In this document: piece by piece, positions 4,332-61,864 of the stretch | Numbering within the stretch: the stretch's first letter is position 1 | Layout of the letters: each line of letters starts with the position of its first letter | Origin: a virus | DNA: 64,000 nucleotides | Reading direction: 5' to 3' (one strand) | IMG/VR virus record: IMGVR_UViG_3300032304_000700 | Span: 1-64,000 of that record | Notes under the pieces: generated by a model | The model's input: the letters and a program-made list of their open reading frames with translations, nothing else | Database searches by the model: none | What the model was told of the DNA's origin: nothing | Made by a program: the position numbers and the translations under genes

Positions 4332-5212
4332 TATAATCCAAATCTATATTTTTGTGCGTTATAATTTTGTAATACATCTGAAGAGGATAATGCAGTATTA
4401 TATATTCTAAATACACCCATAGTTATTGGTGCATAATATCCATCAGCATTTGAAACTATTCTTCCCAATGTAACACCTATACCCGATGTTGATGTATTAT
4501 ATTGTGGAGCGGATGTTTGTGAACGTGTTAGTGTTAACGCTTTTTCTACACCATTTACATAACATTTTGTGGTTGAAGTACTAATTGTTGAACCCGATTT
4601 TACCCATGCAACATGTACATATGTATTCAATGGATAATCCGTTGCACTATCTAATCTAGTAGAATCATACACATCTATATGTATTCTATTTGTAGTTGGA
4701 GTCCAACCGGATATTGCATTTCCTTGTCCTGTACCACCAATTCCCCAAAATGCACCTACATTAAAATCGGTAGTTCTTTTTACAAAAAAATCTACTGTGA
4801 AATTTGGGTCACCATCTAATGTAGTATTTTTTATATTTGATGTCATATATTGAGATGAACCATTAAATGCAATACTCCCATTTCCATCAGTCGAACTATA
4901 AGTTGGTGAATTATAAAATATTCCGTGATGTCCATTTCCACTAATATCATACCACATTTTTCCACCTCTATAACTTGTTGATTTTGCAGCATCCAAATGA
5001 AGTTGTAAACCGGATGTTACAATAGTTCCTTCTGCAACTTTTCCAGTTGTTTGGTCTATCCAATAACTACCATTATAATATTCAATGATACCCAATGTTG
5101 TATTAAATCTAACATATCCCGTTACAGGTGAACCTGGTCTTTGGTCGGTTGTTCCTGATGGTAATCCTATATAACCCGTATCGTTTATGGTGAGATTGAT
5201 AAGATTTGCCAT
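4331..5212 (-). CDS. LamG/concanavalin-like virion adhesin with shared N-terminal adaptor
   Basis: IVTSGLQLHLDAAKSTSY...WYDISGNGHHG...FNGSSQY...IYNTALSSSDVLQNYNAQKYRFGL is a typical phage LamG protein. Confidence 0.85.
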   Translation of the reverse strand: MANLINLTINDTGYIGLPSGTTDQRPGSPVTGYVRFNTTLGIIEYYNGSYWIDQTTGKVAEGTIVTSGLQLHLDAAKSTSYRGGKMWYDISGNGHHGIFYNSPTYSSTDGNGSIAFNGSSQYMTSNIKNTTLDGDPNFTVDFFVKRTTDFNVGAFWGIGGTGQGNAISGWTPTTNRIHIDVYDSTRLDSATDYPLNTYVHVAWVKSGSTISTSTTKCYVNGVEKALTLTRSQTSAPQYNTSTSGIGVTLGRIVSNADGYYAPITMGVFRIYNTALSSSDVLQNYNAQKYRFGL

Positions 5213-8109
5213 TATCTATTTGATTTTAAATCTTCAATTTCTTTCTTTAAATCTTTTATTGCTTCAATTAATACACCAACAATTCTACCATATGAAACTG
5301 AGTCTATTTCACCCTCTTCATTTTTCAAAACTACTTCAGGCAAAACTTCATAAATTTCTTCAGCTATTACACCCATTTCTCGTACACCATTATCTTTTTT
5401 ATCATATGTAACACCTCTCATTTGAAGAACTTTATCTAAACCATATTTTATAGTTTCAATATTTTCTTTATATCGTATTGATGAATTTTCAGTAATTGTT
5501 CCTGCAAATGTTGCATTTTGAGCACTACTAATTGTTATAGCAGTTGTTCCATTTGTTGATAAATACATTGGATTTGCACCTTCTGCGTGTAAGGTCATAC
5601 CACCTGCTTGGTTACTATAAACATACATACCAGATTGTCTATATTGTCCGGATGTTGTAAAAGTGCTACCAAACAATGCCATACCGGAACCATTTGCAGT
5701 AGTATCATTTCCTAATTGGTAATTTGAATTATTTGCAGAACTCAATGTTCTAAGATTATGTACTAAAAATCCAGAACCAGTTATTGATTGATTTCCTACG
5801 AATGAATTAGAACCAGTAGTTGCCAATCTTGCAATGTTTGTTGTAGACATTACATCAATTTGAGAACTACCACTTACAACCGTTTCTGCATTTAATCTTG
5901 TCTTAATGGTCGTATTAATAGACGATGTAAATGTTTCCAAATTAGCCGTTTCAACTTCTAATGTAGACAATCTTGTTAATGCAGAAGAACTGAATGAATT
6001 AATGTTACTATTCAATACCGATACATCAACTCCATCAACATTTCCCGAAATTGTAATACTACCTGTAATATTAACATTTGAACCTAATGAAATTGTAGTT
6101 CCATCGTCTGTAATATTTGAATCAACTAAATGTTCTTTACCTGTTCCTTTTGGTAATCTATTATTTGTAAGATAAATTTCGTTTCCTAAATTATCGTATG
6201 TTTCGGGTCCTAATACAAAATGAGATGATGTTACATTTGTACCATTTCCTCTATGTACAAATATGAATTCATCTTGTACCGAATCGTATAACAATGAACC
6301 CGAACCTCCAACTGACCCACTATCTATTATAGTCAAACCTGCAAATCTTACCGATGGGTTTGCTGTATTTAATTGAACAATATTGGTTCCAATTGATACA
6401 GATGATGCTGAAATATATTGAATTGATGAACTACCTTGTACAATTAAGTCATTTGCAACATAAAGTGAACCACTAAATGTTTGTGTACCATAAAAAGTAT
6501 TAGAACCGGTTGTTGCATAACTTCCTGTTTTACTTTCTATACTTGTCAATCTTTGATTTGATGAACCCGTATTAGTTTGGATTGTAGATATTTGTGTTGC
6601 AACCGAAGAACTAAATGTTGTAAGATTTATACCATTAATATTTCCGGTACTTTCCAAAGAACCACTTACTACTATATTATTTCCAAAAACAATAGCATTT
6701 CCTCCTGAGGATGTTACTTTATTTCCATCTTGTATTTGTAAAGTTCCTCTAACATCGATTAATCCAGTTGTTGGGTCAAATAATAAATTACCTCCACCTG
6801 ATGATTTTAGTTCAATATTTCCGTCAGCAGATTGTAAAATAATATTATCACTTCCTGCTTCTAAAATCTTAATTGATTGACCTGCATCAGTTGTAATTTG
6901 TAATTCGTTTCCAGTTGAACTTAAAACTTTTGTTCCATCTATATAAAGTGAACCAGATGAAACATATATATCTCTCCATTGGTACTCCGAACTACCTAAA
7001 TCGTATGTATTATCTATGGCAGGTATAATTGAACCACTTAATGTTTGAGTTCCTCTAAATGTATTAGAACCCGTTGTGGCGTAACTTCCCGTTTTTTCTA
7101 TTAAAGATGTTAATCTTGTTTCTATTGATGCAGTTGAAACTGAAGCAGTGTAAGTATTTAATGAATCTAATATACCAATTACTTGTGATGAACCACTTAC
7201 TATTCCAGAAGGTTTACTTGCAATGTTATCCCAATTTGTTTGTGTTATACTACCACTTAAAACATATCTTGTATCATATGAACTTGTCAATTGAGATGAA
7301 CCACTCACAGTTCCTGCGGGTGGTATCGATTCTATACCATTAGGCCCTACTAACGCGACTTGTTGATTTCCTACAATAAATTTAATACCAGCTTCAGTTG
7401 GAACAATTTGTGAACTACCTGTTACATTTGATATAAATGTTTTAAATCCAATCGGAGTCCCGACTTCACTATCCCATTGAAAATCTATTAAATATTTTCT
7501 AGATTCATTATTAAATTCACTAATTGATGCAGAACTATTTGAATTATAATCCCAACCATCAATTGGCAAATCATCACTAACTACTCCTCTCAACCCACTA
7601 CCATCTCCTGTAAATGAACCAGTAAATGAACCCGATGTTGTACCACCACCCACTTCTTGTCCATTTAATAAAAATGAACCCGTAATATTTACTGAACCTG
7701 TAAAACTATGTATGTCATCCGAAGTATTACCGAATTTAGAACTGCCACTTTCAAAAAGAACAGATGATGATATTACCGAAATGTTAAATTGTCTTGCATT
7801 GATTTGACCTAAAACCGTCAAATCGGATGTAATTCCCAAAGAACCACTTATTACACTTACACCATGATTTACGGTAAGTGTATCGTTTACTCTTAAAGAA
7901 CCGAAAGAACCAGTTCCCTCTAATCTAATAGACCCCGTTACTACGGAATTTGTTGTTAATACACTTTCAACCGATTCAATTGAACCCGATTTTTTAAAGT
8001 AAATCTTACCATCGTAAGTGTTTACCGCTAATTCTCCTAAATTTAATGAACCCGTACCAGGTACCTTTCCCGATAACGCAGAGCGTTTCAGTTGAACAAT
8101 TGATGCCAT
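5212..8109 (-). CDS. Tail fibre with Mtd-like N-terminus and C-terminal intramolecular chaperone (peptidase S74)
   Basis: N-term VQLKRS...VP...L..GELAVNTYDGKIY; C-term SSIRYKENI...GVIAEE...PEVV...VSYGRIVGVLIEAIKDL. Confidence 0.85.
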   Translation of the reverse strand: MASIVQLKRSALSGKVPGTGSLNLGELAVNTYDGKIYFKKSGSIESVESVLTTNSVVTGSIRLEGTGSFGSLRVNDTLTVNHGVSVISGSLGITSDLTVLGQINARQFNISVISSSVLFESGSSKFGNTSDDIHSFTGSVNITGSFLLNGQEVGGGTTSGSFTGSFTGDGSGLRGVVSDDLPIDGWDYNSNSSASISEFNNESRKYLIDFQWDSEVGTPIGFKTFISNVTGSSQIVPTEAGIKFIVGNQQVALVGPNGIESIPPAGTVSGSSQLTSSYDTRYVLSGSITQTNWDNIASKPSGIVSGSSQVIGILDSLNTYTASVSTASIETRLTSLIEKTGSYATTGSNTFRGTQTLSGSIIPAIDNTYDLGSSEYQWRDIYVSSGSLYIDGTKVLSSTGNELQITTDAGQSIKILEAGSDNIILQSADGNIELKSSGGGNLLFDPTTGLIDVRGTLQIQDGNKVTSSGGNAIVFGNNIVVSGSLESTGNINGINLTTFSSSVATQISTIQTNTGSSNQRLTSIESKTGSYATTGSNTFYGTQTFSGSLYVANDLIVQGSSSIQYISASSVSIGTNIVQLNTANPSVRFAGLTIIDSGSVGGSGSLLYDSVQDEFIFVHRGNGTNVTSSHFVLGPETYDNLGNEIYLTNNRLPKGTGKEHLVDSNITDDGTTISLGSNVNITGSITISGNVDGVDVSVLNSNINSFSSSALTRLSTLEVETANLETFTSSINTTIKTRLNAETVVSGSSQIDVMSTTNIARLATTGSNSFVGNQSITGSGFLVHNLRTLSSANNSNYQLGNDTTANGSGMALFGSTFTTSGQYRQSGMYVYSNQAGGMTLHAEGANPMYLSTNGTTAITISSAQNATFAGTITENSSIRYKENIETIKYGLDKVLQMRGVTYDKKDNGVREMGVIAEEIYEVLPEVVLKNEEGEIDSVSYGRIVGVLIEAIKDLKKEIEDLKSNR

Positions 8110-8223: not shown

Positions 8224-8784
8224 TTAGAATTGACCTGCATCTGGTCCGAATGATGCTGAAAGTTCTAATTGATATAATCTACCATGAACTGAGCCACTAA
8301 ATGCCAACACATCACCAATTCCGTAAAGAGAACCACTAAATCCTTGTGCAGTTGTGATAGTTGCAATTGTTACATCGTTATATCTAAAGTCAACTGCATT
8401 TTCAGTAGTTGCTACTTTATAAAGAGAACCACTACCTTGAATATATCCGATTGTACCTGCAAATGGGTCAGAGTTGAAATCAAAGTCATCAGGTCTCATT
8501 GATGCGGTTACACCACTAATTCCACTACCATCACCTACTAAGAATGATGCAGATACTACCGATGCACTAACTGCTCCAGAGAGACTAATCGAACCAGTTA
8601 CCTTTGCTCCGGCAACTACGATTTCTACTACCTCATCGGTTGAACCTGACTTGTGTAAAAACGCTTTACCATCATAGGTATTTAATGCTATTTCACCTAC
8701 CTGTAACGATGTGGTTGTAGGTACCGAACCTGCGACACCCGAGCGTTTCAGTAAAATTGATGAAGTTGTGTTATTTGTTGCCAT
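8224..8784 (-). CDS. Short fibre-like virion protein with Mtd-like N-terminus
   Basis: ILLKRSGVAGSVP...LQVGEIALNTYDGKAF is paralogous to 5212..8109. Ends DAGQF. Confidence 0.7.
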   Translation of the reverse strand: MATNNTTSSILLKRSGVAGSVPTTTSLQVGEIALNTYDGKAFLHKSGSTDEVVEIVVAGAKVTGSISLSGAVSASVVSASFLVGDGSGISGVTASMRPDDFDFNSDPFAGTIGYIQGSGSLYKVATTENAVDFRYNDVTIATITTAQGFSGSLYGIGDVLAFSGSVHGRLYQLELSASFGPDAGQF

Positions 8785-8813: not shown

Positions 8814-11800
8814 TTAATAAGTTCCTCCGTCTATTACTGAAATTCTTGTTTCAATTGATGCACTAAATGTATTAAATCCAGTTGTTTGTGTAATATCAAT
8901 TTGTGATGAACCACTTACAACAGTTTCAGCGTTTAATTTAGTTTTAATAGTAGTATCAATCGAAGAAGTAAATAAATTTAAACTTCCAGTTGATGTTTCT
9001 AATAAACCTAATCTAGTATTTTGTGTAGTTTGAGACGATGCAAATGAAGAACTCAAAGATAATTGAGATGCTGCACTTGCAGAGAATGATGTTGCTACCG
9101 ATGAACTAAAGTTTCCAGTCACACTTGCCACACTTGCAGATAATGCAGTGATACTAGCGTTACTTGCTGAGAATGAAGTTGCGACAGATGAACTAAAGTC
9201 TCCAGTTACACTTGCTACACTTGCAGATAATGCAGTAATACTAGCGTTACTTCCACTAAATGAAGTTGCTATTGAACCACTAAATGTGTCAAATCCAGTC
9301 GTTGATGAAATTGTAATTTGAGACGAACCACTTACAACTGAATCACCAAATTGTCTTAATAATTTAGATTCATTACCTAATGTTCCACCTTTCCAATAAT
9401 CATTTGCAGAATCCCACAATAATGAACCAGATGCAGTTGAAGGTGCAGTTGGGTCTTTAACTAATAAACCACCATTTGCAGCTCCTGTACCATTTAATTC
9501 GATGATGTTATCACCAATTTGTACAGTTGTTGATGAAATTGATGTAGTAGTACCTTTAACCGTTAAGTCACCTTGTATTTCTACATTTTGTCCACTTAAA
9601 CTGATAGCCTGTTTGAATGAAGATGTAAAGTTGTTTAATTCTATTATTGAAACCTTAGCACTTCCACTTGCAGTTTCTAATTGTGATAATCTATCTAAAT
9701 TTGAACCACTAACTACATTCAATGCATTAATACTAATTTGTTGAGATGCAGATGAACTATTTAAAGCTGATATTGAAGTATTTACACTTGCAGATGTAGA
9801 TTCTAAATTAGATAATCTACCACTTGCAGATGATGTAAATGAATTAATATTTGTAATTGAAGTATTAACACTTGCAGATGTAGATTCTAAGTTTGTTAAT
9901 CTACCCAATGTAGAGCCACTAAATGTATTCAATGCATCTATACTAATTTGTTGTGATGCAGATGAAGTATTTAAAGCAGATACGGATGTGTTTACGCTTG
10001 CCGATGTACTTTCTAAGTTTGTTAATCTTCCCAAAGTTGAACCACTAACTACATTTAATGCATCTATACTAATTTGTTGAGATGCAGATGAAGTATTTAA
10101 TGCCGATACCGAAGTATTAACACTTGCACTAAATAATTCAATATTAGTTAATCTACCATCTTGTGTATCATTTGTAGATTTTGCTGCTGATGCAGATGCA
10201 ATCAATGAACCACTCACAACTCCAATTTCAGTAAACTTATCAATTGCTGATGCAGTAAATGCGTTTAATGCAGTTGTAGAAGTATTAGAAGATGTGTAAG
10301 AATTTAAAGCTGCAATTGAAATATCAACACTTGATGATTTAGATTCTAAATTATCCAATCTAAGTCCTTGCGAATCATTTGTTGTCTTAGCAGCTGATGC
10401 TGAAGCAATTAGTGAACCACTTACAACTCCAATTTCAGTCAATCTTGTTAATACAGATGAACTAAATGAATTGATATTTGTAATTGAAGTATTAACACTT
10501 GCAGAAGTTGTTTCTAAATTAGATAATCTACCTAAGTTTGAACCACTTACCGTATTTAAAGCGTCAATGCTAATTTGTTGAGAAGCAGAAGAACTATTTA
10601 AAGCCGATACCGATGTATTAACACTTGCAGACGTACTTTCTAAATTAGATAATCTAGTTAAAGACGAACCACTAAATATATTTAATGCATCGATACTAAT
10701 TTGTTGTGATGCAGATGAAGTATTTAACGCAGATACCGAAGTATTAACACTTGCAGAAGTATTTTCTAAGTTTGTTAATCTACCTAATGTAGAACCACTA
10801 AATGTATTTAAGTTATCTAATGATACTTGTTGAGATGCTGATGAACTATTTAATGCTGTTACTGAAGTATTTACACTTGCACTAAATGTGTTTAAATTTG
10901 TTATCGAAACCCCTTGTGAATCATTTGTTGTTTTTGCTGCAGATGCTGAAGCTATTAAACTTCCACTAACAACTCCAATCTCAATTAATTTTGTTTCAAC
11001 TGATGAACTAAATAATTCAATATTAGATAATCTACCTAATGTAGAAGAACTAAATGAGTTTAAGTTTGTAATTGAAACTCCAACACCACTACCTACATTT
11101 GCAGTGATTGATGCTAATGAAGCACTAACTGATTGAGAATATTCGGTTACATTTCCAATACCTGCAATTGAACCACTAAATCCTGCTGATGCACTTATTG
11201 GACCAGTTACATTTAATGAAGTTTCAATGAATACACCATTTACACCCTTAACAGTTACAGTTTGTAAACTATCATTAATCTCTACAAAGTTAGTATCGTC
11301 ACCTAAGAAGGTTTGTCCACCCGTTGCTTTAATATGAACATCTGTTACCGAAGTGTTATAAATTTCAAGCTTTCTTGCATCGTTAATATCAGGTTGTAAG
11401 AATATACTTCCAGTACCTATGATTGCGTTATTAACAATAATTGAACCACTAACACCTAAACCACCACCAATATTTATTTTAGAATTGTCTAATTGTGTAA
11501 TGATTGAGTCACCAAGATGGTCATCACCAACTGCAAGTGTGATTTTACCCGCAGTAAGTCCTAATTCGTTACCTATTGAACCAGAATTTGCAGGGCCAGA
11601 TATCAATCTTGCAGTGAAACCTGATTCTGCACCACCAGATGGATGTTGATAAATCCAATGATTATTTTGAGAATCCCATAATAATGAACCACTTGCACCT
11701 GCTCCACTACCACTATCCGATACCGATATTCCACCAAATCTAACTGCTGGTGTTGCGGTACTTAATTTAACTATATTAGTTCCGATTTCAACTACGGATG

Positions 11801-54019: not shown

Positions 54020-54189
54020 TACTTATCCTGACTTAATTTATGAAATTCAGTCAAATAATATTGAATACGATTGCTCCACTCATCTTTATCAATTTCTTCA
54101 AACCAAACGGTAAGTGCGTCTAATGAATTTGCAATCTTTTCTAAAGCTTTTATTTTTTTTGTTTCTAATAATAACTCTTCGTCTGTCAT
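54019..54189 (-). CDS. Small 56-aa hypothetical protein (not in ORF track)
   Basis: MTDEELLLETKKIKALEKIANSLDALTVWFEEIDKDEWSNRIQYYLTEFHKLSQDK; TAATG overlap with the GT7 start. Confidence 0.7.
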   Translation of the reverse strand: MTDEELLLETKKIKALEKIANSLDALTVWFEEIDKDEWSNRIQYYLTEFHKLSQDK

Positions 54190-54237
54190 AATTTATTTAT
54201 TTTTAGTAATATATGATTTTTTATTTAAATTACCAAA

Positions 54238-55086: not shown

Positions 55087-55107
55087 TTAATTTTTTATTA
55101 ATCTTTT

Positions 55108-55866
55108 TTAAAGCTTTCTTGTTAGCAGTGCTAAACCAGTGCTTGTAACTTTTTTATCAAACATACGAAAATTTTTTAAATTTACCAAATTCCATTTTTT
55201 ATCCTCTTCTAATTCTTTAATAAATTTACATGGTCCGTCAAAAGGAACAAAATCTTCCTTTGAATTTTCCGTAACAACTAATGTATCATGGTAGGTTTGG
55301 TCGGTATCGTGAATTGTTATAATACCATTTTCAGACATTATAGTTGAATATAATTCAAAATCTTTTTTAACTCCTTCGTATGAATGGTCTCCGTCAATAT
55401 GTAAATAATCTATTTTCATATCTTGTCTTACAAAATAATCATAAAAAGCTCTTTCGGATGTTTCTAATATAACTTGTGGTGAAAAGTGTTGTCTTAAAAA
55501 ACTATTTTCATTTGTCCAATCGGTAAACCCACCAACACCATTAGCAGCATCTATTATTATTGTAGTTCCAATATCACCCCATTCTGCTTGGCCATTTCCT
55601 TCAAATATATTTTGAGAATGTAAATCCATTCTAGCTTGTGTCATAAGTCTTGGAATAAAACCTCCTCCTGACCCAATACAGACACATATTTTTGCTCTAA
55701 TAAATTGAATGAAAGAATATACCAATAATCCATCACCCAGGTGTAAATCGGTTGCACCATGTGTCCAACGATATTTGACAGGTTCTAAAACTTCTTCATC
55801 ATTTTCGTTTATTGTATGATTATTTGTTAAATACTTTTTTATAAGTACATCATTAAGTAACTGCAT
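55108..55866 (-). CDS. Class I SAM-dependent methyltransferase (Methyltransf_24-like)
   Basis: VCIGSGGG; IDYLHIDGDHSYEGVKKDF...GIITIHDT. Confidence 0.85.
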   Translation of the reverse strand: MQLLNDVLIKKYLTNNHTINENDEEVLEPVKYRWTHGATDLHLGDGLLVYSFIQFIRAKICVCIGSGGGFIPRLMTQARMDLHSQNIFEGNGQAEWGDIGTTIIIDAANGVGGFTDWTNENSFLRQHFSPQVILETSERAFYDYFVRQDMKIDYLHIDGDHSYEGVKKDFELYSTIMSENGIITIHDTDQTYHDTLVVTENSKEDFVPFDGPCKFIKELEEDKKWNLVNLKNFRMFDKKVTSTGLALLTRKL

Positions 55867-56825
55867 ATTTCTTTAATCCAATTTTGTTTATTTGTATATT
55901 TTGTCAATCCATCTCTCAATTTACAAAATTCTAAATTTACTTTTTCAAATTCATCCTCTTGTAATTCTAAATATCTTTGATGAAATTCCCCTTTACTACT
56001 TGCTCTATATTTGTAATCAATACCTTTCATCCAATCGGTATGTATAATTGGAACTTTACCATTATCAACTGCATCAAAAATTGCATATCCAAATGGTTCT
56101 TTGGTATAACATCCATGAAATATTTGAAAGTTTTTTTGAAAAAAATTATTATGAAAATTATAATCAAATTCCATAAAATTATGATAGTCCGAATTAGTTT
56201 TTGACCCTTCTAACATTCTTTTGTAATCGTATTTGTTTGAAAAGATAATTGATGGAATGCAATCTAAATAGTGTGCATTCTTTCTGGTCTCACATCTTGC
56301 AGCATATCCAATTTTATTAGTTATTATTCCTGTGAATGGTTTATTGTGTTTCCATTCATAGTAGTTTGTAATCGTTTTTGTTTTTGGATATTGATTGTGT
56401 ATTGTATCGTTTTCATATCCTATCCAAACTATGTTTTCGGAATTATCTAATATTTCTTTTTGCCATTCCCAATCGACTTTTGTCATTATATTTTCGTAAT
56501 CAGAATTTAAACCCAACATATCAGGAATAAACGCATGGACAAATGTAAGATAAGTTTTGTGTAAATAGTTTTTAATAATAGGATTTTGTTTGTAAGAGTG
56601 ATGTAAGAAAATAATCTTATCACATTCATCTAATATTTTATCAACTTCTTTTTCGTTTCCAAAAGTGTAGATTGCATCAATTTCTCTAATCAACGGCCTG
56701 CCATCAATTATAATTTTATAATCTTCTTTGACTAATGGTAAAACATTTTCTATAAAGTTATTGCACCAAATATCAGCACCACCGATAACATTTTTTCCAT
56801 AACCTGTTGTAATAAAAACTATCAT
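55839..56825 (-). CDS. GT-B fold (GT4-like) glycosyltransferase
   Basis: N-term GG..W; ARCETRKN; EPFGYAIFDAVDNGKVPI (EPFG..ExA-like motif). Confidence 0.7.
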   Translation of the reverse strand: MIVFITTGYGKNVIGGADIWCNNFIENVLPLVKEDYKIIIDGRPLIREIDAIYTFGNEKEVDKILDECDKIIFLHHSYKQNPIIKNYLHKTYLTFVHAFIPDMLGLNSDYENIMTKVDWEWQKEILDNSENIVWIGYENDTIHNQYPKTKTITNYYEWKHNKPFTGIITNKIGYAARCETRKNAHYLDCIPSIIFSNKYDYKRMLEGSKTNSDYHNFMEFDYNFHNNFFQKNFQIFHGCYTKEPFGYAIFDAVDNGKVPIIHTDWMKGIDYKYRASSKGEFHQRYLELQEDEFEKVNLEFCKLRDGLTKYTNKQNWIKEICSYLMMYL

Positions 56826-56843: not shown

Positions 56844-57242
56844 TTACAATCCACAATCACCTAAATATCTAAAATCTCCAGAATTACTTATTCTACCATA
56901 TGAAGTAGCATCTGAGTAAATTCTTCCACCACCAGCAAATTCGGTACCATCTGAATTATAATATGTTGTTCCATCATTTAAACCACCATACTCATTACTA
57001 TAAAGTACATTAGTATAATTTCCATTTCCGGCATTTAAACAAGCTGTTCCAGTTGGTCCAGTTGTTCCAGTTGCAACAAAAAATGCATAAGTATATCCAC
57101 CACCCCCTCCTCCTGGATTTAGCCAACTATCAAATTCCGACATACTATCTGGTGCAGTAAGTCCTCTAGCAGCGGCATAACTTCTAAGATTTAAATCCGA
57201 GCTTCCTAATTTATTTTTTATAGCTAACATTGATTGACTCAT
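56844..57242 (-). CDS. Small Gly-rich virion-associated protein
   Basis: TAATG-coupled to the tail fibre. P.SMSEF motif is typical of proteins following S74 fibres. Confidence 0.65.
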   Translation of the reverse strand: MSQSMLAIKNKLGSSDLNLRSYAAARGLTAPDSMSEFDSWLNPGGGGGGYTYAFFVATGTTGPTGTACLNAGNGNYTNVLYSNEYGGLNDGTTYYNSDGTEFAGGGRIYSDATSYGRISNSGDFRYLGDCGL

Positions 57243-60200
57243 TATCTATTCCTTTTTAATTCTTCAATTTCTGATTTTAATTCTTTAATACACTCAACCA
57301 ATAATGGAACGATTCTTTCATAATTTAAAGTCATATAATTTTCACCAGATTTACTTTGATTAGTTTGACCAAGAGAATCAAAAGGTGCCAAATCAATCAC
57401 TTCAGGTAAAACTTCGTTAACTTCTTGTGCAATTAATCCAATTTGTCTTTTTTTATTTTTAAATCCAAAATCTTCCGCTAATTTATTTTGTGTATAATAT
57501 ACCCCGTTTAACTTTTCAATTTTATCTAACGGATTTTCAATTTTGCCTTCAATATTTTTTAATCTACCATCAGAATAGTTTGCCACTACATCACCCCAAA
57601 CCTGTAATTTTGTACCATTTAAAGTTGCCCATGGCCCCCCTGCATATTGACCAAAAGTAAATGAAGTCAGAGCACTCAATACCGTATTTCTTTCAATAGA
57701 TTCTAATCCTGGTATCCCCTCATTATATATAGTTTTATATCCTCTAAGAAATCCCATTATAGTTGCCGGTGTGTCCGGGTCCCTAAATTCAAAATTACCC
57801 CCAGGTGTAATCGTTTGCGGGTTCATACCTGATGCTAGAACATCTTTCCACCCTCTTATTATGACATTTGAATTTACAGTCATATTACCAGATAATGTTG
57901 CATTTCCACTACTATCTACTGAAAATTTATCCGGCCCGATATTAATAGTACCACCGGTTATGGTTGTACCACTTAAGGTTCCACCGGTTATGGTTGTACC
58001 ACTTATTGTTGTACCACTTATTGTTGTACCACTTAATGTTCCACCGGTTATAGTAGAACCACTTACTGCTCCTTTAAAGAATGCATTCCCCGATGTATCA
58101 ATATAAAATTGTTGTGCATGTATAGAACCACCACTATTTAAAGTTATACCAGATGTTGAAAAACCATCTGTATCTTTTGTTCCACTAAATATTGAATTAC
58201 TATCTATTGTCCAACCACCAACAGTACCTGCCGTTTTAGCAGAACCATTTTGTTGAGCAGTTGCACCACTAGCCGCACCATCTTTAACGGTTGTTGCATC
58301 TGTTCCACCAATTGTTGCCGTACCTGAAATTGAAACACTACCTGCTATTACAACTCCTTCACTTTCAGTGAATTTTATGTGTGCACCAGACGGGTCTCCA
58401 AATCTCATACTACCTGTTGTATCTAAGTAATATCCTTTTCCGGTCATTAATGCCGATGCATTTGCACTTCTAATAAATCCTTTATCACTTGTACCATATG
58501 TTCCCATTACTAAACCTCGTGTAATAGTTGCATCTTGTGCCAAAAGAATATCAGTTGCAACCGAACTAAACGTTGCACCAAATGAACTCCATTGATTTAA
58601 ATATGATGTACCAGTTATTGGTTTATCCACTGCACCATCTGCAGTAGATGTGTGTCCTACTTTTGTTAAATAGTATTGTGAATTACTACCTCTTACAACA
58701 TCTATTCTAACGGATGATGAAAAATATGCTGTATTAGGTGCCCAATCTCCTCTATAAACTACACCTGGTCCTGCACCACCATCTGCACCATTTAAACCGT
58801 TACTTCCTGCAGTTCCCGTATTCACTTTTGTAAATCTTGCAACAATAGTTTGTGTTTGACCAGTAGTACCTTCACTATCAGTATGTGTTACAACAATTGT
58901 AGCAGATGCTTCAGCTGCATTCATTACTGCAGATGTCATTGTTAATATTGCACTACTAATTGTTGGATTTGTTGAAAACCCTGAATATGTTGCAGTCATA
59001 GATGTAAATCTACTCGTAGTTCCTTCCAATGCAGTTACTGTCACATTTGATAAAATTCCAGTTTGAACACCAGCAGCATTGGCCAATACCGATTGTGCTT
59101 GTGGAGTTGCAGATATAACTACATTTGGAACTGCTTTTTTAGTTTTTGATAATGCCAATGTATCTGTTATAGTTCTACTTACACCTTCCGAATCTGTAAC
59201 TACTGCACTAATATCTACAGTTGTTGAATTTACTCCGTTTGCTAAAGTTTTTCCATTTAAAGTAATCAATCCTGTTGATGGTGTTGTTGATATAGTTGCA
59301 ATATTTGCAGATGTTGCAGTTAAAGATGTTATCGTTAAATTTGTAGTAACACCATTATAAGTTTCTTTTACCGATATGGTTACATTTGAAAATGCATCTA
59401 TTTGTTCACCTGTTGATTTTGCAGTTACTGTTTGGTCTTTTGGTGTTGATGTAATTTGCAAAACGGGTGCAGCTTTTTTGTTTTTAGTATATGTTACTAA
59501 TTTTGTTGTATCAGATGTATCACCCGCACCATCTTTATATCTTATAGTCAAATTCAAAGAACCACTATCAGCATCTAATCTTGTTATGAAATAGTCGGTT
59601 GTTGAATAATTCAATGAACCAGTTTGAACATTTGTTGCAACTGCCGATACAACATCAAATCTATTATTTGCAGATAATCCATTATTATGTGTTATAGTTT
59701 CATTACCAACTTTAACACTAACCGAACCACTACTCAATACAAAAGAACCACTTTCTACAAATCCAGTAGAACGTGCCGGTAGTGATGCATTATCGTTTGT
59801 CAAAGATACAGATAATCCATCTAATATTTTTACAGGACTTATTTTAATTGCATCTGAAAATACATTCCCAAATTGGTCAGAACCAGAAATAGAATAAATC
59901 GTTTCACCCGTTCCATATGGATAAGATGTTCCTGATAATGTATAAGTATCTACACCATTTGTTGTATTTGTGGAAACATATGTTAGAGCGGGTTTTCCAC
60001 TTCCAGAATTTACAGTTAAAGGAGTGTCTGCAGATGCTAAGTTTTTTCTTTTAGCTTCAAGTGTTATAACTTGACCTGTTGGGTTTAATGATAAATCGGT
60101 TGCTTTGTAAATAAATTGATTTGTATTTGCAGTTACAAAAACACCAGGTGCATTATCACCATCTTCAAATCTATAAATTGTTTCATGTTGATGTAATTCT

Positions 60201-61864
60201 TCACATGATGCAGTATATGTAATTGACCCAATCGTTATATTTGCAAGACTTCCAGTAAACTCATCTATATGTGCAATAAAACCATTTTCACTTGGATTTG
60301 TAGGTTCTCCTGGATATGGATAAGGGCCACCTGGAGCTGAAGCATAAACGGATGGTGCAATATAACTTCCTGTTAGGTCAAAAACTGAACGGCCGTATGT
60401 TACCGAACCTGTTAAATTTGTCCTTCCAACTGTAAATGCAATTTGTTGAAATCTCGGATTACCAATTGAACCAGTAGCAAATCTAAATGCATTTCTATCC
60501 GAATCAAATGTTAATGTTTTTGCTACTCTATTTAAATTACCTCCTGTAAAATTTGCACTTTGAGTAACAAACACAGGTACATAGTTATTATTAACATCGT
60601 AAAATTCAAACTTAAAATTATAATCTTCATTACCAATTGAAGTAGGCATTGTAGTTATAAAAGAAACCTCATCAGGAGAAAAAGCTGTATCTTGTGATAA
60701 TCTCAAACTAATATTTCCTAAATGCCATTCACCTTGAGATTGTGAAAAATACAAAGATGCAGTTGGATAATCTCTATCTATTTTAAATGGTATTACCGTA
60801 TCTAATAAATTTTTAGTTGGTTGTGTTCCTACTAAAGTTGCAAGACTACTTGTAAATGTTGTAGACTGAGAAACATAACTCAAATATATCCCCAAATTAC
60901 TAGATGTGGATGCTGAATAAAATGCATCTAAATTTAATTCATATGTATTTGCACTTTTTATATCTAAAGATGAGGTATATGTTAATTTTCCGTTACCAGT
61001 CATCTTTATACCACTCTCAACTCTATTATTTGATAATTGTGTATTCAATGAACCAGTATTCCAATAATTTTTAAGTGTTTCTGATGTAAATGTTCCTGTA
61101 TTTCCTACGACACTTCCCGATAGTCCAAATGTAGTTAATAATTCTTTTGATTCAACTAATATATCTTGTATCAAACTAAAATCGGATATATCACCCAATG
61201 AAGTTCTAAATACTTTTACTCTTTTTACATCTCCGGCAAATGTTTCTAAATTTGATAACTTAATATCTGCAAATGATTGACTTATTCCTGAATTTATTTT
61301 TGAACCACTATCTATTCTATAAATTGGTTCTAATAATTCAGTAATACTTACGGTAGGCCTTTTATAAAATCTAATCTTAGTGGTATTTGCAAGAGATGGG
61401 TTTACATCAATTTGCTTTTGCCATTTTACATTATACTTATTTTCCCAATCCAACGGCACAGGAAGTGTAAGACCATTTGAATCTTGATATTCACTTAATT
61501 CACCCAATATAGTAAGTGTACAAGGGCCATATGCAGTATCCGGATAAACATATACTGCAACTACTTTAGAAACACCTTCATAATATTCTGCAATAAATGG
61601 TTCACCACCTAATGATGAAGAAATCAAACCCTCACCAGGTTCGTGATAGATAACATTTCCGGCAGAATCTTTTAATTCAATCTGTATTTTAGTATCCGGA
61701 ACCAAATATTCCGAACCTGCGATTAAGAATGCATTTTTTCCACCTGTAAATGTGTCAGGTAGTTCGGTTATTTTAAAATATTTACTATCCGATTGAGTAT
61801 CGTTTACTAATATAGCGTACTTATCTAAATTCTTTGGGAATAATGTTTTCTTTATAACAGCCAT
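57242..61864 (-). CDS. Large tail fibre/baseplate-associated protein with C-terminal S74 chaperone
   Basis: N-term SKYFKITELPDTFTGGKNAFLIAGS; GTTISG pentapeptide repeats; YSDGRLKNI...GLIAQEV..VLPE...YERIVPLLVECIKEL. Confidence 0.85.
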   Translation of the reverse strand: MAVIKKTLFPKNLDKYAILVNDTQSDSKYFKITELPDTFTGGKNAFLIAGSEYLVPDTKIQIELKDSAGNVIYHEPGEGLISSSLGGEPFIAEYYEGVSKVVAVYVYPDTAYGPCTLTILGELSEYQDSNGLTLPVPLDWENKYNVKWQKQIDVNPSLANTTKIRFYKRPTVSITELLEPIYRIDSGSKINSGISQSFADIKLSNLETFAGDVKRVKVFRTSLGDISDFSLIQDILVESKELLTTFGLSGSVVGNTGTFTSETLKNYWNTGSLNTQLSNNRVESGIKMTGNGKLTYTSSLDIKSANTYELNLDAFYSASTSSNLGIYLSYVSQSTTFTSSLATLVGTQPTKNLLDTVIPFKIDRDYPTASLYFSQSQGEWHLGNISLRLSQDTAFSPDEVSFITTMPTSIGNEDYNFKFEFYDVNNNYVPVFVTQSANFTGGNLNRVAKTLTFDSDRNAFRFATGSIGNPRFQQIAFTVGRTNLTGSVTYGRSVFDLTGSYIAPSVYASAPGGPYPYPGEPTNPSENGFIAHIDEFTGSLANITIGSITYTASCEELHQHETIYRFEDGDNAPGVFVTANTNQFIYKATDLSLNPTGQVITLEAKRKNLASADTPLTVNSGSGKPALTYVSTNTTNGVDTYTLSGTSYPYGTGETIYSISGSDQFGNVFSDAIKISPVKILDGLSVSLTNDNASLPARSTGFVESGSFVLSSGSVSVKVGNETITHNNGLSANNRFDVVSAVATNVQTGSLNYSTTDYFITRLDADSGSLNLTIRYKDGAGDTSDTTKLVTYTKNKKAAPVLQITSTPKDQTVTAKSTGEQIDAFSNVTISVKETYNGVTTNLTITSLTATSANIATISTTPSTGLITLNGKTLANGVNSTTVDISAVVTDSEGVSRTITDTLALSKTKKAVPNVVISATPQAQSVLANAAGVQTGILSNVTVTALEGTTSRFTSMTATYSGFSTNPTISSAILTMTSAVMNAAEASATIVVTHTDSEGTTGQTQTIVARFTKVNTGTAGSNGLNGADGGAGPGVVYRGDWAPNTAYFSSSVRIDVVRGSNSQYYLTKVGHTSTADGAVDKPITGTSYLNQWSSFGATFSSVATDILLAQDATITRGLVMGTYGTSDKGFIRSANASALMTGKGYYLDTTGSMRFGDPSGAHIKFTESEGVVIAGSVSISGTATIGGTDATTVKDGAASGATAQQNGSAKTAGTVGGWTIDSNSIFSGTKDTDGFSTSGITLNSGGSIHAQQFYIDTSGNAFFKGAVSGSTITGGTLSGTTISGTTISGTTITGGTLSGTTITGGTINIGPDKFSVDSSGNATLSGNMTVNSNVIIRGWKDVLASGMNPQTITPGGNFEFRDPDTPATIMGFLRGYKTIYNEGIPGLESIERNTVLSALTSFTFGQYAGGPWATLNGTKLQVWGDVVANYSDGRLKNIEGKIENPLDKIEKLNGVYYTQNKLAEDFGFKNKKRQIGLIAQEVNEVLPEVIDLAPFDSLGQTNQSKSGENYMTLNYERIVPLLVECIKELKSEIEELKRNR
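57948..58062. repeat. 15-bp-unit repeats encoding G-T-T/L-I-S/T pentapeptides
   Basis: Tandem ttgtaccacttattg / ccaccggttatgg units; protein GSTITGGTLSGTTISGTTISGTTITGGTLSGTTITGGTI. Confidence 0.8.

What the first reader, a model, noticed from the sequence alone, without database searches (positions are those of the whole stretch)
5212..61864. Candidate glycosylation sequon: [S/T]-[G/A/S/Q]-S saturates surface structural proteins
Seen: SGS/TGS/SAS/SQS/TAS tripeptides recur at very high density in otherwise unrelated proteins. These include the fibres (965, 186, 1417, 562, 157, 593, 488 aa), gp13 (TGSSASEFSSS, SLSGSSS), the variable central part of the MCP (FTGSS, VASAS, VSASF, LTGSN), the 90-aa protein and the N-terminal half of the 1540-aa fibre (DSGSK, ISQSF, LSGSV, NTGSL, ATGSI, LTGSV, ESGSF, QTGSL). 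By eye they are scarce in scaffold, portal, terminase, protease, gp46 and the sugar enzymes. Established: virion glycosylation is known in some actinobacteriophages and giant viruses, and eukaryotic GT7 member B4GALT7 extends xylose on Ser-Gly sites. Inference: the motif is an acceptor sequon selected on exposed virion surfaces for the phage's own glycosyltransferases, giving a glycan-coated virion.
Basis: partly seen in the sequence, partly recalled or inferred. Interest (0 to 1): 0.85.

Follow-up and report, generated by a model that had tools for sequence, protein, structure and literature searches.

The report
Serine tripeptide tag on phage fibres
The outer tail and fibre proteins of this uncultured freshwater T4-like phage carry the tripeptide Ser/Thr-Gly/Ala-Ser about four times more often than chance, in a way that looks like a recognition tag for the phage's own sugar-adding enzymes, although no attached sugar has been shown.

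Summary
In eight fibre proteins [ST]-[GASQ]-S occurs 273 times against about 105 (whole-protein shuffles) or about 118 (10-40-aa block shuffles). The true motif is narrower: hydrophobic-[ST]-[GA]-Ser-hydrophobic, with Ser only at the third place (SGS 4.8x, SGT 0.9x). It is selected at protein level and is not explained by composition, repeats or shared modules. It sits in register with two shaft designs: a six-residue beta-helix-like repeat and a heptad coiled coil.

The excess marks one clade (this lineage, Flavobacterium phage immuto, Microcystis phage Mel-JY01). It is absent from T4, KVP40, four Kyanoviridae-type phages (two cyanophages, HTVC008M, Melnitz), a Campylobacter phage and the related huge phage LR756508. 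Orthologous non-repeat virion proteins keep the motif count (63 v 62) but share only 13 positions.

The GT7-LamG genes are not the common factor. A conserved pair of GT-B glycosyltransferases, found in complete relatives, tracks the motif, but a three-gene tree allows a single origin.

An O-glycosylation acceptor is my leading reading (0.45); a purely structural habit is the rival (0.35). This scan has already noted the same motif on at least eight other genomes.

The parts
5212..8109 (-). 965-aa fibre with an Mtd_N-like N-terminus (name recalled) and a C-terminal Peptidase_S74 chaperone; motif-rich shaft and motif-free distal 200 aa
   Evidence: [ST][GASQ]S 41 v 12.6, z=8.4. [ST][GA]S 33 v 5.8. 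PF13884 at 876-928. Sequence.
8224..8784 (-). 186-aa fibre piece sharing its N-terminal module with the 965-aa fibre
   Evidence: 10 v 2.2, z=5.7. 51% identity over residues 5-65 to the 965-aa fibre.
8814..13067 (-). 1417-aa serine-rich (22% Ser) coiled-coil fibre with about 42-aa repeats carrying SAS/SGS at fixed heptad places
   Evidence: 101 v 45.5, z=9.2. Hydrophobic period 3.5 with power 11.7-17.3, and Ser period 7/14 with power 18.7/20.5. Coiled-coil Pfam families SlyX, DUF7310 and DUF16.
13582..15270 (-). 562-aa fibre; N-terminal 134 aa are 63% identical to the 1417-aa fibre
   Evidence: 25 v 13.4, z=3.5. 4 of 300 20-aa block shuffles reach the observed count. Module sharing.
15318..15791 (-). 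157-aa fibre piece with 13 motifs
   Evidence: 13 v 4.2, z=4.8. Pattern phi|S/T|G/A/S|S|phi kept in 21 distinct orthologues.
15807..17588 (-). 593-aa fibre; motif in the N-terminal 300 aa, with only 2 in the C-terminal globular half
   Evidence: 29 v 9.4, z=6.9. Sequence.
21335..22801 (-). 488-aa fibre: hexapeptide (G-x5) beta-helix-like shaft plus a C-terminal knob. [ST]-G-S is the commonest filling of the x-G-x turn of the hexad.
   Evidence: 26 v 6.4, z=8.3. Gly period-6 power 15.1 and the hexad rows are. Weak LpxA match, E=0.038 and 0.29. Atlas structural look-alikes are lambda Stf repeat and Phage_base_V, with C1q by features (leads only).
57242..61864 (-). 1540-aa fibre directly upstream of the glycan cluster. 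Motifs lie in non-repetitive N-terminal parts. S74 chaperone at the C-terminus.
   Evidence: 28 v 11.6, z=4.9. 1423 aa have no shared or repeated segment and give 18 v 6.7. PF13884 at 1431-1489. A large ORF upstream of the GT7 genes is enriched in 17 of 20 related loci with a full upstream flank.
20036..21247 (-). gp13-like neck / head-tail adaptor protein with two Ser-rich patches
   Evidence: [ST][GASQ]S 7 v 1.7. [ST][GA]S 3 v 0.8, p=0.037. phrog_211, E=2e-10. None of its 3 sites falls in the same column in immuto, Mel-JY01 or RM378, which have 1, 4 and 3 of their own.
23555..25162 (-). Gp23-type major capsid protein, with 4 motifs in the variable central part (marginal)
   Evidence: PF07068, E=2e-76. 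4 v 1.3, p=0.044. Sites conserved in 63 distinct close orthologues. 6 v 1.3 in relative G003.
29104..29376 (-). 90-aa head-module protein with three SGS (marginal)
   Evidence: 3 v 0.5, p=0.014.
51156..54019 (-). Two paralogous GT7 (beta-1,4-galactosyltransferase-type) genes, each with a LamG-like domain inside the catalytic fold
   Evidence: PF13733, PF02709 and PF13385. Best solved relative is beta4GalT7 (3lw6), E=5e-26, with the DVD and WGWG-ED motifs aligned. The paralogues are 31% identical over the full length.
38567..56825 (-). Co-directional glycan-building cluster between the 1540-aa fibre and the head genes. It holds a split ThDP E1 pair, an RmlC-like epimerase, an SDR, an N_Twi radical SAM, a methyltransferase, the GT7 pair and about 10 orphans.
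   Evidence: Only one gap over 40 nt lies inside the cluster (54020-54237); the next gaps are upstream of the fibre and just downstream of the cluster.
1973..5212 (-). Three structural-type proteins (549 aa with LamG_3, 235 aa, 293 aa) that are Ser/Thr/Gly-rich but NOT motif-enriched
   Evidence: 0 v 2.2, 1 v 0.9 and 1 v 1.1. Homologues in immuto are annotated as structural proteins.

Best explanation
Hydrophobic-[Ser/Thr]-[Gly/Ala]-Ser-hydrophobic is a short surface turn or cap element of outer virion proteins: fibres, baseplate periphery, neck, and marginally the capsid. Selection keeps it at high density because a phage-encoded trans-acting enzyme recognises it.

The most likely enzyme is a cytoplasmic O-glycosyltransferase that primes the invariant Ser during late assembly. 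The best candidate primer is the pair of adjacent GT-B (GT4-type, E-x7-E) glycosyltransferases conserved in every motif-rich lineage. In this lineage the GT7-LamG enzymes and the deoxy/branched-sugar genes of the 18-kb cluster next to the 1540-aa fibre would then extend and tailor the glycan. The result would be sugar-coated fibre shafts with bare receptor-binding tips.

Shown:
- the motif, its order specificity, its restriction to outer virion proteins and to one clade;
- its positional turnover;
- the presence of the enzymes.

Inferred:
- that any sugar is attached;
- which Ser is used;
- which enzyme primes.
For: 1. The excess is order-specific and survives every null:
- whole-protein, 40-, 20-, 10- and 6-aa block shuffles;
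- a first-order Markov expectation, 1.7-2.2x.

2. Selection acts on the protein. 193 instances use 63 different 9-mers and both Ser codon families.

3. The third position is Ser only, while the first is S or T. SGS is 4.8x and TGS 4.3x, against SGT 0.9x and SAT 0.4x. This looks like enzyme specificity.

4. The same tripeptide fills exposed-type positions in two unrelated shaft designs (hexad repeat and heptad coiled coil) and in non-repetitive proteins.

5. Density is conserved while positions turn over.
- In 7 orthologous virion proteins, G000 has 63 aligned motifs and immuto/Mel-JY01/RM378 have 62, but only 13 coincide.
- Against the close relative G003 the figures are 49, 55 and 33.
- Each of four lineages is still 2.7-3.8x over 6-aa block shuffles (0 of 400 shuffles).

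6. The excess is clade-specific.
- SGS/TGS are among the top genome-wide tripeptides in G000, G003, immuto and Mel-JY01 only, out of the 12 genomes ranked (LR756508 was not ranked).
- Enriched ORFs in the clade: 8 of 54, 13 of 126, 7 of 90 and 9 of 101.
- Outside it: 0 of 89 (T4), 0 of 122 (KVP40), 0 of 70 (Melnitz), 0 of 80 (HTVC008M), 0 of 82 (NCTC12673), 1 of 127 (P-SSM2), 1 of 118 (S-SCSM1) and 0 of 234 (LR756508).

7. A GT-B pair tracks the motif.
- It is present in G003, G005, immuto and Mel-JY01 at 44-50% identity between lineages, similar to the MCP.
- The 460-aa member occurs in only 7 of 50,697 phage records.
- The 422-aa partner is missing from RM378 and LR756508.

8. The nearest solved relative of the 460-aa enzyme is chlorovirus glycosyltransferase B736L (3oy2, E=5e-12). 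A review links it tentatively to the virus's capsid glycan (PMC4691112, passages).

9. Immuto DNA shows three canonical nucleosides plus fdPreQ1 (PMC10516641, passages). Its glycosyltransferases are therefore not needed for DNA glycosylation.

10. The glycan cluster is packed co-directionally behind a fibre gene, inside the structural region.
Against: - There is no chemical evidence of any modification.
- The motif is flanked by core-type hydrophobic residues and lies in register with structural repeats. It may be needed for folding alone.
- The association with the GT-B pair is not phylogenetically independent. A concatenated MCP+portal+TerL tree puts the motif-rich lineages in one group (support 88/90) with LR756508 outside, so one ancestral event suffices. 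The MCP-only tree disagrees at 83/93.
- The GT-B pair is not on the window's own contig, which is a 49%-complete fragment.
- In relatives the pair sits beside a PD-(D/E)XK nuclease and a clamp loader, not among late genes.
- GT7 enzymes extend sugars; they do not prime proteins (established knowledge).
- Three Ser/Thr/Gly-rich structural proteins (1973-5212) lack the motif.
- P-SSM2 and S-SCSM1 have GT2/GT4 clusters but essentially no excess.
- Published work reads fibre-adjacent glycosyltransferases of aquatic myophages as modifiers of the host O-chain (PMC7029224, passages).
- Surface exposure could not be tested.
Confidence: 0.45

Rival explanations
1. The motif is a purely structural habit. 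It would spread by duplication and module exchange and be retained for folding and trimer packing. The glycan genes would act on something else, such as the host envelope.
For: - Hydrophobic residues occupy 64% of position -1 and 56% of position +3, against a 30% background.
- In the 488-aa fibre the motif is one filling of a strict G-x5 repeat, alongside IGN, SGN, SGT and RGV.
- Ser shows period 7/14 in the coiled-coil fibre.
- Fibres exchange modules.
- Motifs are concentrated in shafts and absent from distal tips.
- Many sites are highly conserved among 38 homologues of the 488-aa fibre.
- A single origin of the trait fits the three-gene tree.
- PMC7029224 (passages) proposes host O-chain modification for fibre-adjacent glycosyltransferases.
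Against: - General turn preferences are not clade-specific. T4 long tail fibres give 2 v 2.7 and 6 v 3.6.
- Seven other T4-type genomes and LR756508, which has orthologous baseplate proteins and 10 large Ser-rich ORFs (46 v 30.6), show no such excess.
- Only 13 of about 63 sites are positionally shared across lineages while the count is maintained. Inherited structural positions would not be expected to behave this way.
- The excess also holds in segments with no detected repeat or shared module.
Confidence: 0.35
2. The motif is recognised by a different clade-specific factor. This could be another post-translational modification of Ser (phosphorylation, acylation, phospho-sugar or glycerol-phosphate addition), or an assembly chaperone that docks on the tripeptide.
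For: The arguments for a trans-acting factor apply equally here: clade specificity, positional turnover and the Ser-only third place. The cluster also holds a strongly matched N_Twi radical SAM enzyme (337 bits against a cut-off of 170), a methyltransferase and about 10 orphan genes of unknown chemistry.
Against: No kinase, acyltransferase or chaperone candidate was found that tracks the motif. Among 25 genes shared by G003, immuto and Mel-JY01 and absent from 7 out-clade genomes, the only recognisable enzymes outside replication and structure are glycosyltransferases.
Confidence: 0.1
3. The excess is a statistical or evolutionary by-product. Very local Ser/Gly-rich loop composition plus dipeptide bias would be inherited by descent, with no selection on the tripeptide.
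For: The dipeptides SG, TG and GS are each 1.3-2.0x enriched. Many sites in globular proteins lie next to alignment gaps, which suggests variable loops.
Against: The excess remains 2.7-3.8x over 6-aa block shuffles. It remains 1.7-2.2x over a first-order Markov expectation that already contains the motif's own dipeptides. The permuted forms SSG (0.4x), GSS (1.5x) and ASS (0.3x) are not enriched.
Confidence: 0.05

Closest known systems
Virion O-glycosylation of mycobacteriophages by phage-encoded glycosyltransferases (Freeman et al. 2023). The paper is not held; I know it only from a citing passage in PMC12619734 and from recall.
   Same: A tailed phage carries its own glycosyltransferases and would decorate its own structural proteins in the cytoplasm.
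   Different: There, glycans sit at the C-termini of the capsid and tail-tube subunits (citing passage). Here the candidate sites are hundreds of internal tripeptides in fibres and baseplate proteins. The enzymes differ (GT-B pair, GT7-LamG). Nothing has been shown chemically.
GtfA-GtfB priming of serine-rich-repeat adhesins in streptococci and staphylococci (recalled; not tested by any search beyond the PDB searches)
   Same: Two adjacent GT-B/GT4-type proteins, and acceptor proteins with dense arrays of Ser-small-Ser. The 1417-aa fibre has runs of the F-SAS-V type.
   Different: - No sequence match to GtfA or GtfB among PDB chains at E<=1.
- Both phage proteins keep an E-x7-E motif.
- The acceptors here are folded shafts with hydrophobic periodicity, not disordered repeats.
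Animal beta-1,4-galactosyltransferases 7 and 1 (CAZy GT7; PDB 3lw6, 1nf5)
   Same: Both window enzymes match the N and C Pfam domains of GT7 over the cut-offs, with the DVD and WGWG-ED motifs aligned.
   Different: A LamG-like domain of about 220 aa is inserted in the fold. The context is a phage. The Ser-Gly proteoglycan sequon with acidic flanks (recalled) does not fit the hydrophobic flanks seen here.
Chlorovirus NY-2A glycosyltransferase B736L (PDB 3oy2) and autonomous capsid glycosylation of giant viruses (PMC4691112, passages)
   Same: It is the nearest solved relative of the clade-conserved 460-aa GT-B (E=5e-12). It is a virus-encoded enzyme tentatively assigned to glycosylation of the virus's own capsid protein.
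   Different: Chlorovirus capsid glycans are N-linked at atypical sites (recalled). The match covers only residues 199-331. The function of B736L itself is unproven.
Host recognition cluster of pelagimyophages and cyanomyophages (PMC7029224, passages)
   Same: A variable island in the structural region mixes tail-fibre genes with glycosyltransferases and sugar-nucleotide enzymes.
   Different: The authors propose modification of the host O-chain and report no motif. HTVC008M and Melnitz, of that group, have 0 of 80 and 0 of 70 enriched ORFs here.
Autotransporter heptosyltransferases (Aah/AIDA-I, TibC/TibA), which glycosylate Ser in beta-helix repeat turns (recalled; not tested)
   Same: Cytoplasmic O-glycosylation of serines located in strand-turn-strand elements of a repetitive beta-helix.
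   Different: A different enzyme family, and no defined tripeptide. No homologue was sought or found here.

Membership tests
CAZy GT7 / beta-1,4-galactosyltransferase fold (window genes 51156-52601 and 52598-54019) | Matches to Glyco_transf_7N and Glyco_transf_7C over Pfam's gathering scores | tested here: met
   64.9-70.8 bits (cut-off 27) and 68.5-69.3 bits (cut-off 23).
CAZy GT7 / beta-1,4-galactosyltransferase fold (window genes 51156-52601 and 52598-54019) | D-x-D metal/nucleotide motif and the W-G-W-G-x-E-D acceptor-side motif | tested here: met
   HDVDMIP and YWGWGYEDND align with the same motifs of beta4GalT7 3lw6.
CAZy GT7 / beta-1,4-galactosyltransferase fold (window genes 51156-52601 and 52598-54019) | Transfers Gal/GalNAc to a sugar acceptor (Xyl-O-Ser for B4GALT7) | not testable with these tools
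   This is a biochemical property. The scores for beta4GalT7 (94.8 bits) and beta4GalT1 (88.5 bits) do not discriminate.
Proteoglycan xylosylation sequon (Ser-Gly with acidic flanks; recalled definition) | Acidic residues flanking Ser-Gly, and G-S-G or S-G-x-G cores | tested here: not met
   Flanks are hydrophobic: F/V/I/L make up 59% of position -1. GSG is only 1.5x and SGG 0.5x.
Mycobacteriophage-type virion glycosylation | Phage-encoded glycosyltransferases | tested here: met
   GT7 x2 in the window. GT-B pair, GT2 and Glyco_trans_1_2 in the complete relative G003.
Mycobacteriophage-type virion glycosylation | Glycans at the C-termini of capsid and tail-tube subunits (as stated in PMC12619734) | tested here: not met
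   The candidate sites are internal. The four MCP motifs lie at residues 123-230 of 535, and fibre motifs run along the shafts.
Mycobacteriophage-type virion glycosylation | Glycan detected on virion proteins | not testable with these tools
   No isolate of this lineage and no proteomic data were available.
GtfA/GtfB-type priming pair of serine-rich-repeat glycoproteins (recalled definition) | Two adjacent GT-B proteins | tested here: met
   G003 41554-42822 (422 aa) and 42824-44206 (460 aa) are adjacent and share the GT4 EGFG...E region. They are not on the window's own fragment.
GtfA/GtfB-type priming pair of serine-rich-repeat glycoproteins (recalled definition) | Sequence homology to GtfA/GtfB | tested here: not met
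   No GtfA or GtfB chain appears among PDB matches at E<=1. The best match is B736L, and the 422-aa protein has no match at all.
Hexapeptide-repeat beta-helix (shaft of the 488-aa fibre) | Six-residue periodicity with Gly at a fixed place | tested here: met
   Gly period-6 power 15.1 and hydrophobic period-6 power 11.0 over residues 196-345, with 15 consecutive G-x5 rows.
Hexapeptide-repeat beta-helix (shaft of the 488-aa fibre) | Match to the Hexapep family or to a solved left-handed beta-helix | tested here: inconclusive
   No Pfam family at E<=0.01. LpxA 4eqy matches only at E=0.038 (sequence) and 0.29 (profile). The hydrophobic residue sits one place off the canonical register (sequence; canonical register recalled).
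Alpha-helical coiled-coil fibre (1417-aa protein) | Heptad (3.5-residue) hydrophobic periodicity | tested here: met
   Power 11.7 and 17.3 at period 3.5, and 11.9 at 3.6 in the third region. Coiled-coil Pfam families SlyX, DUF7310 and DUF16 match, the latter two below cut-off.

The most novel reading that the evidence does not exclude
An abundant clade of aquatic T4-like phages runs its own cytoplasmic protein O-glycosylation system with a defined three-residue sequon, hydrophobic-[S/T]-[G/A]-S-hydrophobic.
- A conserved GT-B pair, as old as the clade's capsid gene, primes hundreds of serines on fibre shafts, baseplate periphery, neck and sheath.
- Fast-changing lineage-specific islands then build different glycans on that primer. 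In this lineage the island holds LamG-split GT7 enzymes, a twitch radical SAM enzyme and a ThDP-dependent sugar-branching pair.
- Particles would therefore wear a variable sugar coat while their receptor-binding tips stay bare.
Probability: 0.4. Interest if true: 0.8.

Novelty: new variant of a known kind. Interest (0 to 1): 0.62.

Why it matters
If the motif is a glycosylation site, it would be the first defined sequon for self-glycosylation of tailed-phage particles outside actinobacteriophages. It would occur in a clade that includes cultured phages of Flavobacterium and of the bloom-former Microcystis, so it is directly testable.

It would also reassign the many 'LPS-type' sugar genes found beside fibre genes in aquatic phage genomes from host modification to virion decoration. 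That has consequences for host range, particle stability, stickiness and grazing in natural waters.

If the motif is only structural, it is still a useful sequence marker. It identifies outer virion proteins in this otherwise poorly annotated clade.

Tried and rejected
Rejected as explanations:
- Composition: whole-protein shuffles.
- Local composition: block shuffles down to 6 aa.
- Dipeptide bias: first-order Markov expectation.
- A DNA-level word: 63 different 9-mers, almost no out-of-frame or opposite-strand copies.
- Recent duplication: 171 of 273 flank contexts are distinct at 50% identity.
- Shared modules.
- 'All phage fibres do this': T4 gp34-37 show nothing, and seven other genomes show nothing.
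- GT7 as the determinant: absent over the cut-off from immuto and Mel-JY01, which have the excess.
- Avoidance of the motif in non-virion proteins: 34 v 28.1, so no depletion.

Led nowhere:
- megablast of 24 kb against phages and a tRNA scan.
- PHROGs and NCBIfam left 8 of the 10 cluster orphans scanned with PHROGs unmatched at E<=0.01; the other two hit only families of unknown function.
- PDB sequence searches of the 965-aa fibre found no match. The 488- and 1540-aa fibres gave only a spurious propeller match, a weak LpxA match and the S74 region.
- The 750-aa gene 36163-38415 turned out NMN-adenylyltransferase-like, not a sugar enzyme.
- The LamG domain of the GT7 enzymes shows no similarity to the LamG of the 549-aa protein.
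- T4-late-promoter words are not enriched on the coding strand: 7 against 15 expected. One copy lies 44 nt upstream of the 1540-aa fibre.
- GT8 is absent from all ten reference genomes.
- A 41.6-kb head region of LR756508 was uninformative, so the whole genome was read.

Literature:
- Searches for phage virion glycosylation listed no paper describing this motif. I read only the listings and abstract openings shown.
- Mel-JY01 has no held paper.
- Supplementary files were not opened. Those of PMC10516641 and PMC7029224 may bear on the DNA chemistry and on the glycosyltransferase lists.

Full report
What the window is. All genes lie on the minus strand of an 89.4-kb viral contig that CheckV rates 49% complete.
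- It is a distant T4-type myophage. It has a Gp23-family capsid protein, a T4-type portal and large terminase, a prohead protease and a gp6-like baseplate wedge.
- The nearest named phages by capsid protein are Microcystis phage Mel-JY01 (53.8%), Flavobacterium phage immuto (53.5%), the uncultured 484-kb phage LR756508 (53.0%) and Rhodothermus phage RM378 (38.5%).
- IMG/VR holds 502 close capsid relatives. I fetched the 80 best, at 82-98% identity.

- In the eight fibres, [ST][GASQ]S occurs 273 times. Whole-protein shuffles expect about 105, the sum of the means. Each fibre has z between 3.5 and 9.2.
- SGS, SAS and TGS are the three most over-represented of all tripeptides in these proteins (73 v 15.1, 55 v 12.9, 46 v 10.7).
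- Shuffling only within blocks of 40, 20 or 10 residues leaves the expectation near 118. For the sharper pattern [ST][GA]S it is near 50, against 193 observed. None of 300 shuffles reaches the observed count.

- Of the 64 tripeptides made from S, T, G and A, only SGS (4.8x), TGS (4.3x), SAS (4.3x), ASA (3.0x) and TAS (2.3x) stand out.
- Thr at the third place abolishes the excess: SGT 0.9x, SAT 0.4x, TGT 0.7x.
- Ser in the middle does not count: SSS 1.4x, TSS 1.2x.
- Permuted orders are depleted: SSG 0.4x, ASS 0.3x.
- SQS is 10 v 5.5, and 20 of 300 shuffles reach it.
- Position -1 is hydrophobic in 64% of 273 sites and position +3 in 56%, against a 30% background.

The signal is at protein level and is not a copying artefact.
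- The 193 [ST][GA]S sites are written with 63 different 9-mers and use both Ser codon families. The commonest 9-mers hardly occur out of frame or on the other strand.
- Gly in the motif is GGT in 81% of cases, against 53% elsewhere. I did not explain this.
- 171 of 273 flanking contexts are distinct at 50% identity.
- The fibres are not 'otherwise unrelated'. blastp shows shared modules among the 965-, 186-, 1417-, 593-, 488-, 562-, 157- and 1540-aa proteins.
- Segments with no shared or repeated match still give 106 v 29.6. This figure is inflated by under-detected repeats in the 1417-aa protein; without that protein it is 50 v 15.3.
- A first-order Markov expectation, which already contains the motif's own dipeptides, is still exceeded 1.7-fold in the fibres and 2.0-2.2-fold in non-repeat proteins of four lineages.

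Structural setting. The motif lives in two unrelated shaft designs.
- Residues about 204-330 of the 488-aa fibre are a strict six-residue repeat with Gly at a fixed place (period-6 power 15.1). Here [ST]-G-S alternates with I-G-N, S-G-N, S-G-T and R-G-V.
- For this fibre there is a weak match to the hexapeptide helix of LpxA. Some sources name homologues 'bactofilin' or 'isoleucine patch'. Atlas look-alikes are lambda Stf repeats, Phage_base_V and C1q. All of these are leads only.
- The 1417-aa fibre has hydrophobic period 3.5 (power up to 17.3) and Ser period 7 and 14 (18.7 and 20.5), and it matches coiled-coil families.
- The tripeptide is therefore part of the architecture.

Which proteins carry the motif.
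- Enriched: the eight fibres, the gp13-like neck protein, four baseplate-region proteins beyond the window (67614-68843, 68863-70101, 70782-75392, 77873-78940), and marginally the capsid protein, the 90-aa protein, a 178-aa protein and the collagen-like protein.
- Not enriched: portal, terminase, protease, scaffold region, gp6-like wedge, gp46-like nuclease and the sugar enzymes. These show 0-2 sites where 0.1-2.1 are expected, so there is no avoidance. The 46 non-fibre proteins give 34 v 28.1 in total.
- Three Ser/Thr/Gly-rich structural-type proteins at 1973-5212 also lack the motif.

Comparison of genomes. I scored every non-nested ORF of at least 200 aa, read from its first ATG, in 13 genomes. 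An ORF counted as enriched when z was at least 3.5 and it held at least 5 sites.

Motif-rich genomes:
- G000: 8 of 54 ORFs, genome-wide observed/expected 3.26
- G003, a complete relative: 13 of 126, ratio 2.76
- Mel-JY01: 9 of 101, ratio 2.64
- immuto: 7 of 90, ratio 2.20
- RM378: 2 of 84, ratio 2.22

Other genomes:
- LR756508: 0 of 234, ratio 1.39
- P-SSM2: 1 of 127, ratio 1.27. The one ORF is a collagen/His-rich tail fibre with SGSGS runs.
- S-SCSM1: 1 of 118, ratio 1.31
- HTVC008M: 0 of 80, ratio 1.57
- NCTC12673: 0 of 82, ratio 1.56
- KVP40: 0 of 122, ratio 1.23
- Melnitz: 0 of 70, ratio 1.12
- T4: 0 of 89, ratio 0.70

Tripeptide ranking. I ranked tripeptides spread over at least 5 proteins in 12 of these genomes (LR756508 was not ranked). 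SGS is first in G000, G003 and immuto and second in Mel-JY01. It is not in the top seven of the other eight.

Turnover. I aligned seven non-repeat virion proteins with their orthologues.
- Against immuto, Mel-JY01 and RM378 (25-59% identity), G000 has 63 motifs in gap-free aligned triplets and the orthologues have 62. Only 13 coincide.
- Against G003 (53-89% identity) the numbers are 49, 55 and 33.
- Each lineage on its own remains 2.7-3.8x over 6-aa block shuffles: G000 51 v 19.1, G003 59 v 21.8, immuto 26 v 9.2, Mel-JY01 49 v 13.0, with 0 of 400 shuffles each.
- Internal proteins (portal, terminase and others) have 0-1 motifs in every lineage.
- The LR756508 orthologues of the same set total 9 v about 4.2.
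- Density is thus maintained while sites move. This is the behaviour of a recognition site under selection for number rather than place.

The enzymes in the window.
- There are two GT7-type genes, each interrupted by a LamG-like domain.
- They sit within an 18-kb co-directional cluster. It holds a split ThDP E1 pair, an RmlC-like epimerase, an SDR, a twitch radical SAM enzyme (337 bits, cut-off 170), a methyltransferase and about ten orphans.
- The cluster lies immediately downstream of the 1540-aa fibre.
- GT7 is present over the cut-off in 5 of 5 large close relatives.
- In 17 of 20 GT7 loci with a full 10-kb upstream flank, a 1000-2200-aa ORF upstream is motif-enriched. None is enriched in the 9 loci with cut flanks (only + strand ORFs of at least 200 aa were examined).
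- GT7 is absent over the cut-off from immuto, Mel-JY01, RM378, Melnitz and T4 (0 of 5, with two sub-threshold hits) and from five further genomes (0 of 5). GT7 therefore cannot define the motif.

The conserved GT-B pair.
- I looked for genes shared by G003, immuto and Mel-JY01 and absent (E>1e-4) from seven out-clade genomes. This gave 25 genes.
- Among them is a block at G003 39986-45101. It holds a GT2 (208 aa), two adjacent GT-B proteins (422 and 460 aa, both with the EGFG...E region) and a PD-(D/E)XK nuclease, with a Glyco_trans_1_2 gene and a clamp loader nearby.
- The 460-aa enzyme matches only 7 of 50,697 phage records: Mel-JY01 50%, four immuto records 44%, LR756508 31% and RM378 26%.
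- The 422-aa partner is found in G005 (87%), immuto (48%) and Mel-JY01 (49%). It is not found in RM378 or LR756508 (3 of 5 handles).
- The pair is in both complete close relatives, G003 and G005. It is in none of the four fragments, including the window's own contig, where absence says nothing (1 of 5 handles).
- The presence of the full pair therefore coincides with SGS being a top tripeptide.

Limit of this association.
- A concatenated MCP+portal+TerL tree of 9 rows groups the motif-rich lineages together (88/90) with LR756508 outside.
- The MCP tree alone nests LR756508 with immuto and Mel-JY01 (83/93), and the portal tree is unresolved.
- One ancestral event can explain both traits, so the co-occurrence is one observation, not several.

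What else the sugar genes could do.
- Immuto carries an 11-kb glycan cluster around its copy of the pair. Its DNA shows three canonical nucleosides plus fdPreQ1 by LC-MS (PMC10516641, passages), so DNA glycosylation is unlikely there.
- For pelagimyophages, fibre-adjacent glycosyltransferases have been read as modifiers of the host O-chain that block co-infection (PMC7029224, passages). This remains a live alternative for the cluster.
- The nearest solved relative of the 460-aa enzyme is chlorovirus B736L. A review discusses it as a possible contributor to the virus's own capsid glycan (PMC4691112, passages).

Reading. A clade-specific, order-specific, Ser-specific tripeptide is confined to outer virion proteins and kept in number while its positions drift. 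This is hard to explain by fold alone and points to a clade-specific factor that reads it. Glycosyltransferases are the only such candidates I found, so I rank an O-glycosylation acceptor first (0.45). I keep a purely structural habit close behind (0.35). The reasons are that the motif is plainly built into the shafts, the phylogenetic association is a single contrast, the primer is unidentified, and no modification has been observed.

Relation to earlier work.
- My three literature searches on phage virion glycosylation listed no description of this motif (listings only).
- Within this scan, the same or a near-identical motif has been followed up on at least eight other genomes, and the LamG-split GT7 genes on at least six. 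Those notes are unchecked AI readings.
- Here I independently reproduced the motif statistics, the clade restriction and the conserved pair. I add that the three-gene tree does not make the association independent.

Noticed in passing
L163:1986-7101 (G003 39986-45101); homologues in immuto 47964-52985 and Mel-JY01 81375-86972: A conserved block of PD-(D/E)XK nuclease, GT-B 460 aa, GT-B 422 aa and a GT2, as conserved as the capsid gene. The 460-aa enzyme occurs in only 7 of 50,697 phage records. Its position beside replication genes is unexplained.
   Followed up: partly
window 8224-8784, 8814-13067, 13186-13566, 15318-15791: Four fibre pieces end in short D-x-G-x-F/Y tails (…DAGQF, …DGGTY, …DAGEF, …DQGEF), and several fibre genes begin with a K/R-R-G/S…GE head. 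Earlier scan notes read this as end-to-end joints of a chained fibre.
   Followed up: no
window 49738-51153: A radical SAM enzyme matches NCBIfam N_Twi_rSAM (NF033640) at 337 bits against a cut-off of 170, directly downstream of the two GT7-LamG genes. Its chemistry is unknown.
   Followed up: no
window 36163-38415: A 750-aa protein whose residues about 485-640 are NMN-adenylyltransferase/cytidylyltransferase-like. The N-terminal 485 aa resemble only viral clusters (DUF6267 on 24% of one cluster). It is conserved next to the terminase in Mel-JY01 as well.
   Followed up: partly
window 2-1924: A collagen triple-helix repeat protein (Gly 25.6%, Gln 16.2%; Pfam Collagen E=1e-68) runs off the window start. 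It also carries 8 [ST][GA]S sites against 2.6 expected.
   Followed up: no
window 61908-61915: The only intergenic TATAAATA on the coding strand lies 44 nt upstream of the 1540-aa fibre gene. From there to 38567, only one gap over 40 nt (54020-54237) interrupts the gene string.
   Followed up: partly
the eight fibre genes of the window: Gly inside the motif is encoded by GGT in 81% of cases, against 53% elsewhere in the same proteins. Ser AGT is 41% against 29%. The cause is unknown.
   Followed up: no
L230:3954-5747 (P-SSM2 PSSM2_023): A cyanophage tail fibre combines a collagen-like stretch with repeated H-x-H…SGSGS units. This is a different kind of Ser-Gly repeat and is the only enriched ORF of that genome.
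   Followed up: no
Mel-JY01 32085-34415 and immuto 146982-149111: The tail sheath proteins of both cultured relatives are motif-enriched (7 v 1.7 and 8 v 2.4). The sheath gene of the window's own phage is not on the fragment.
   Followed up: no
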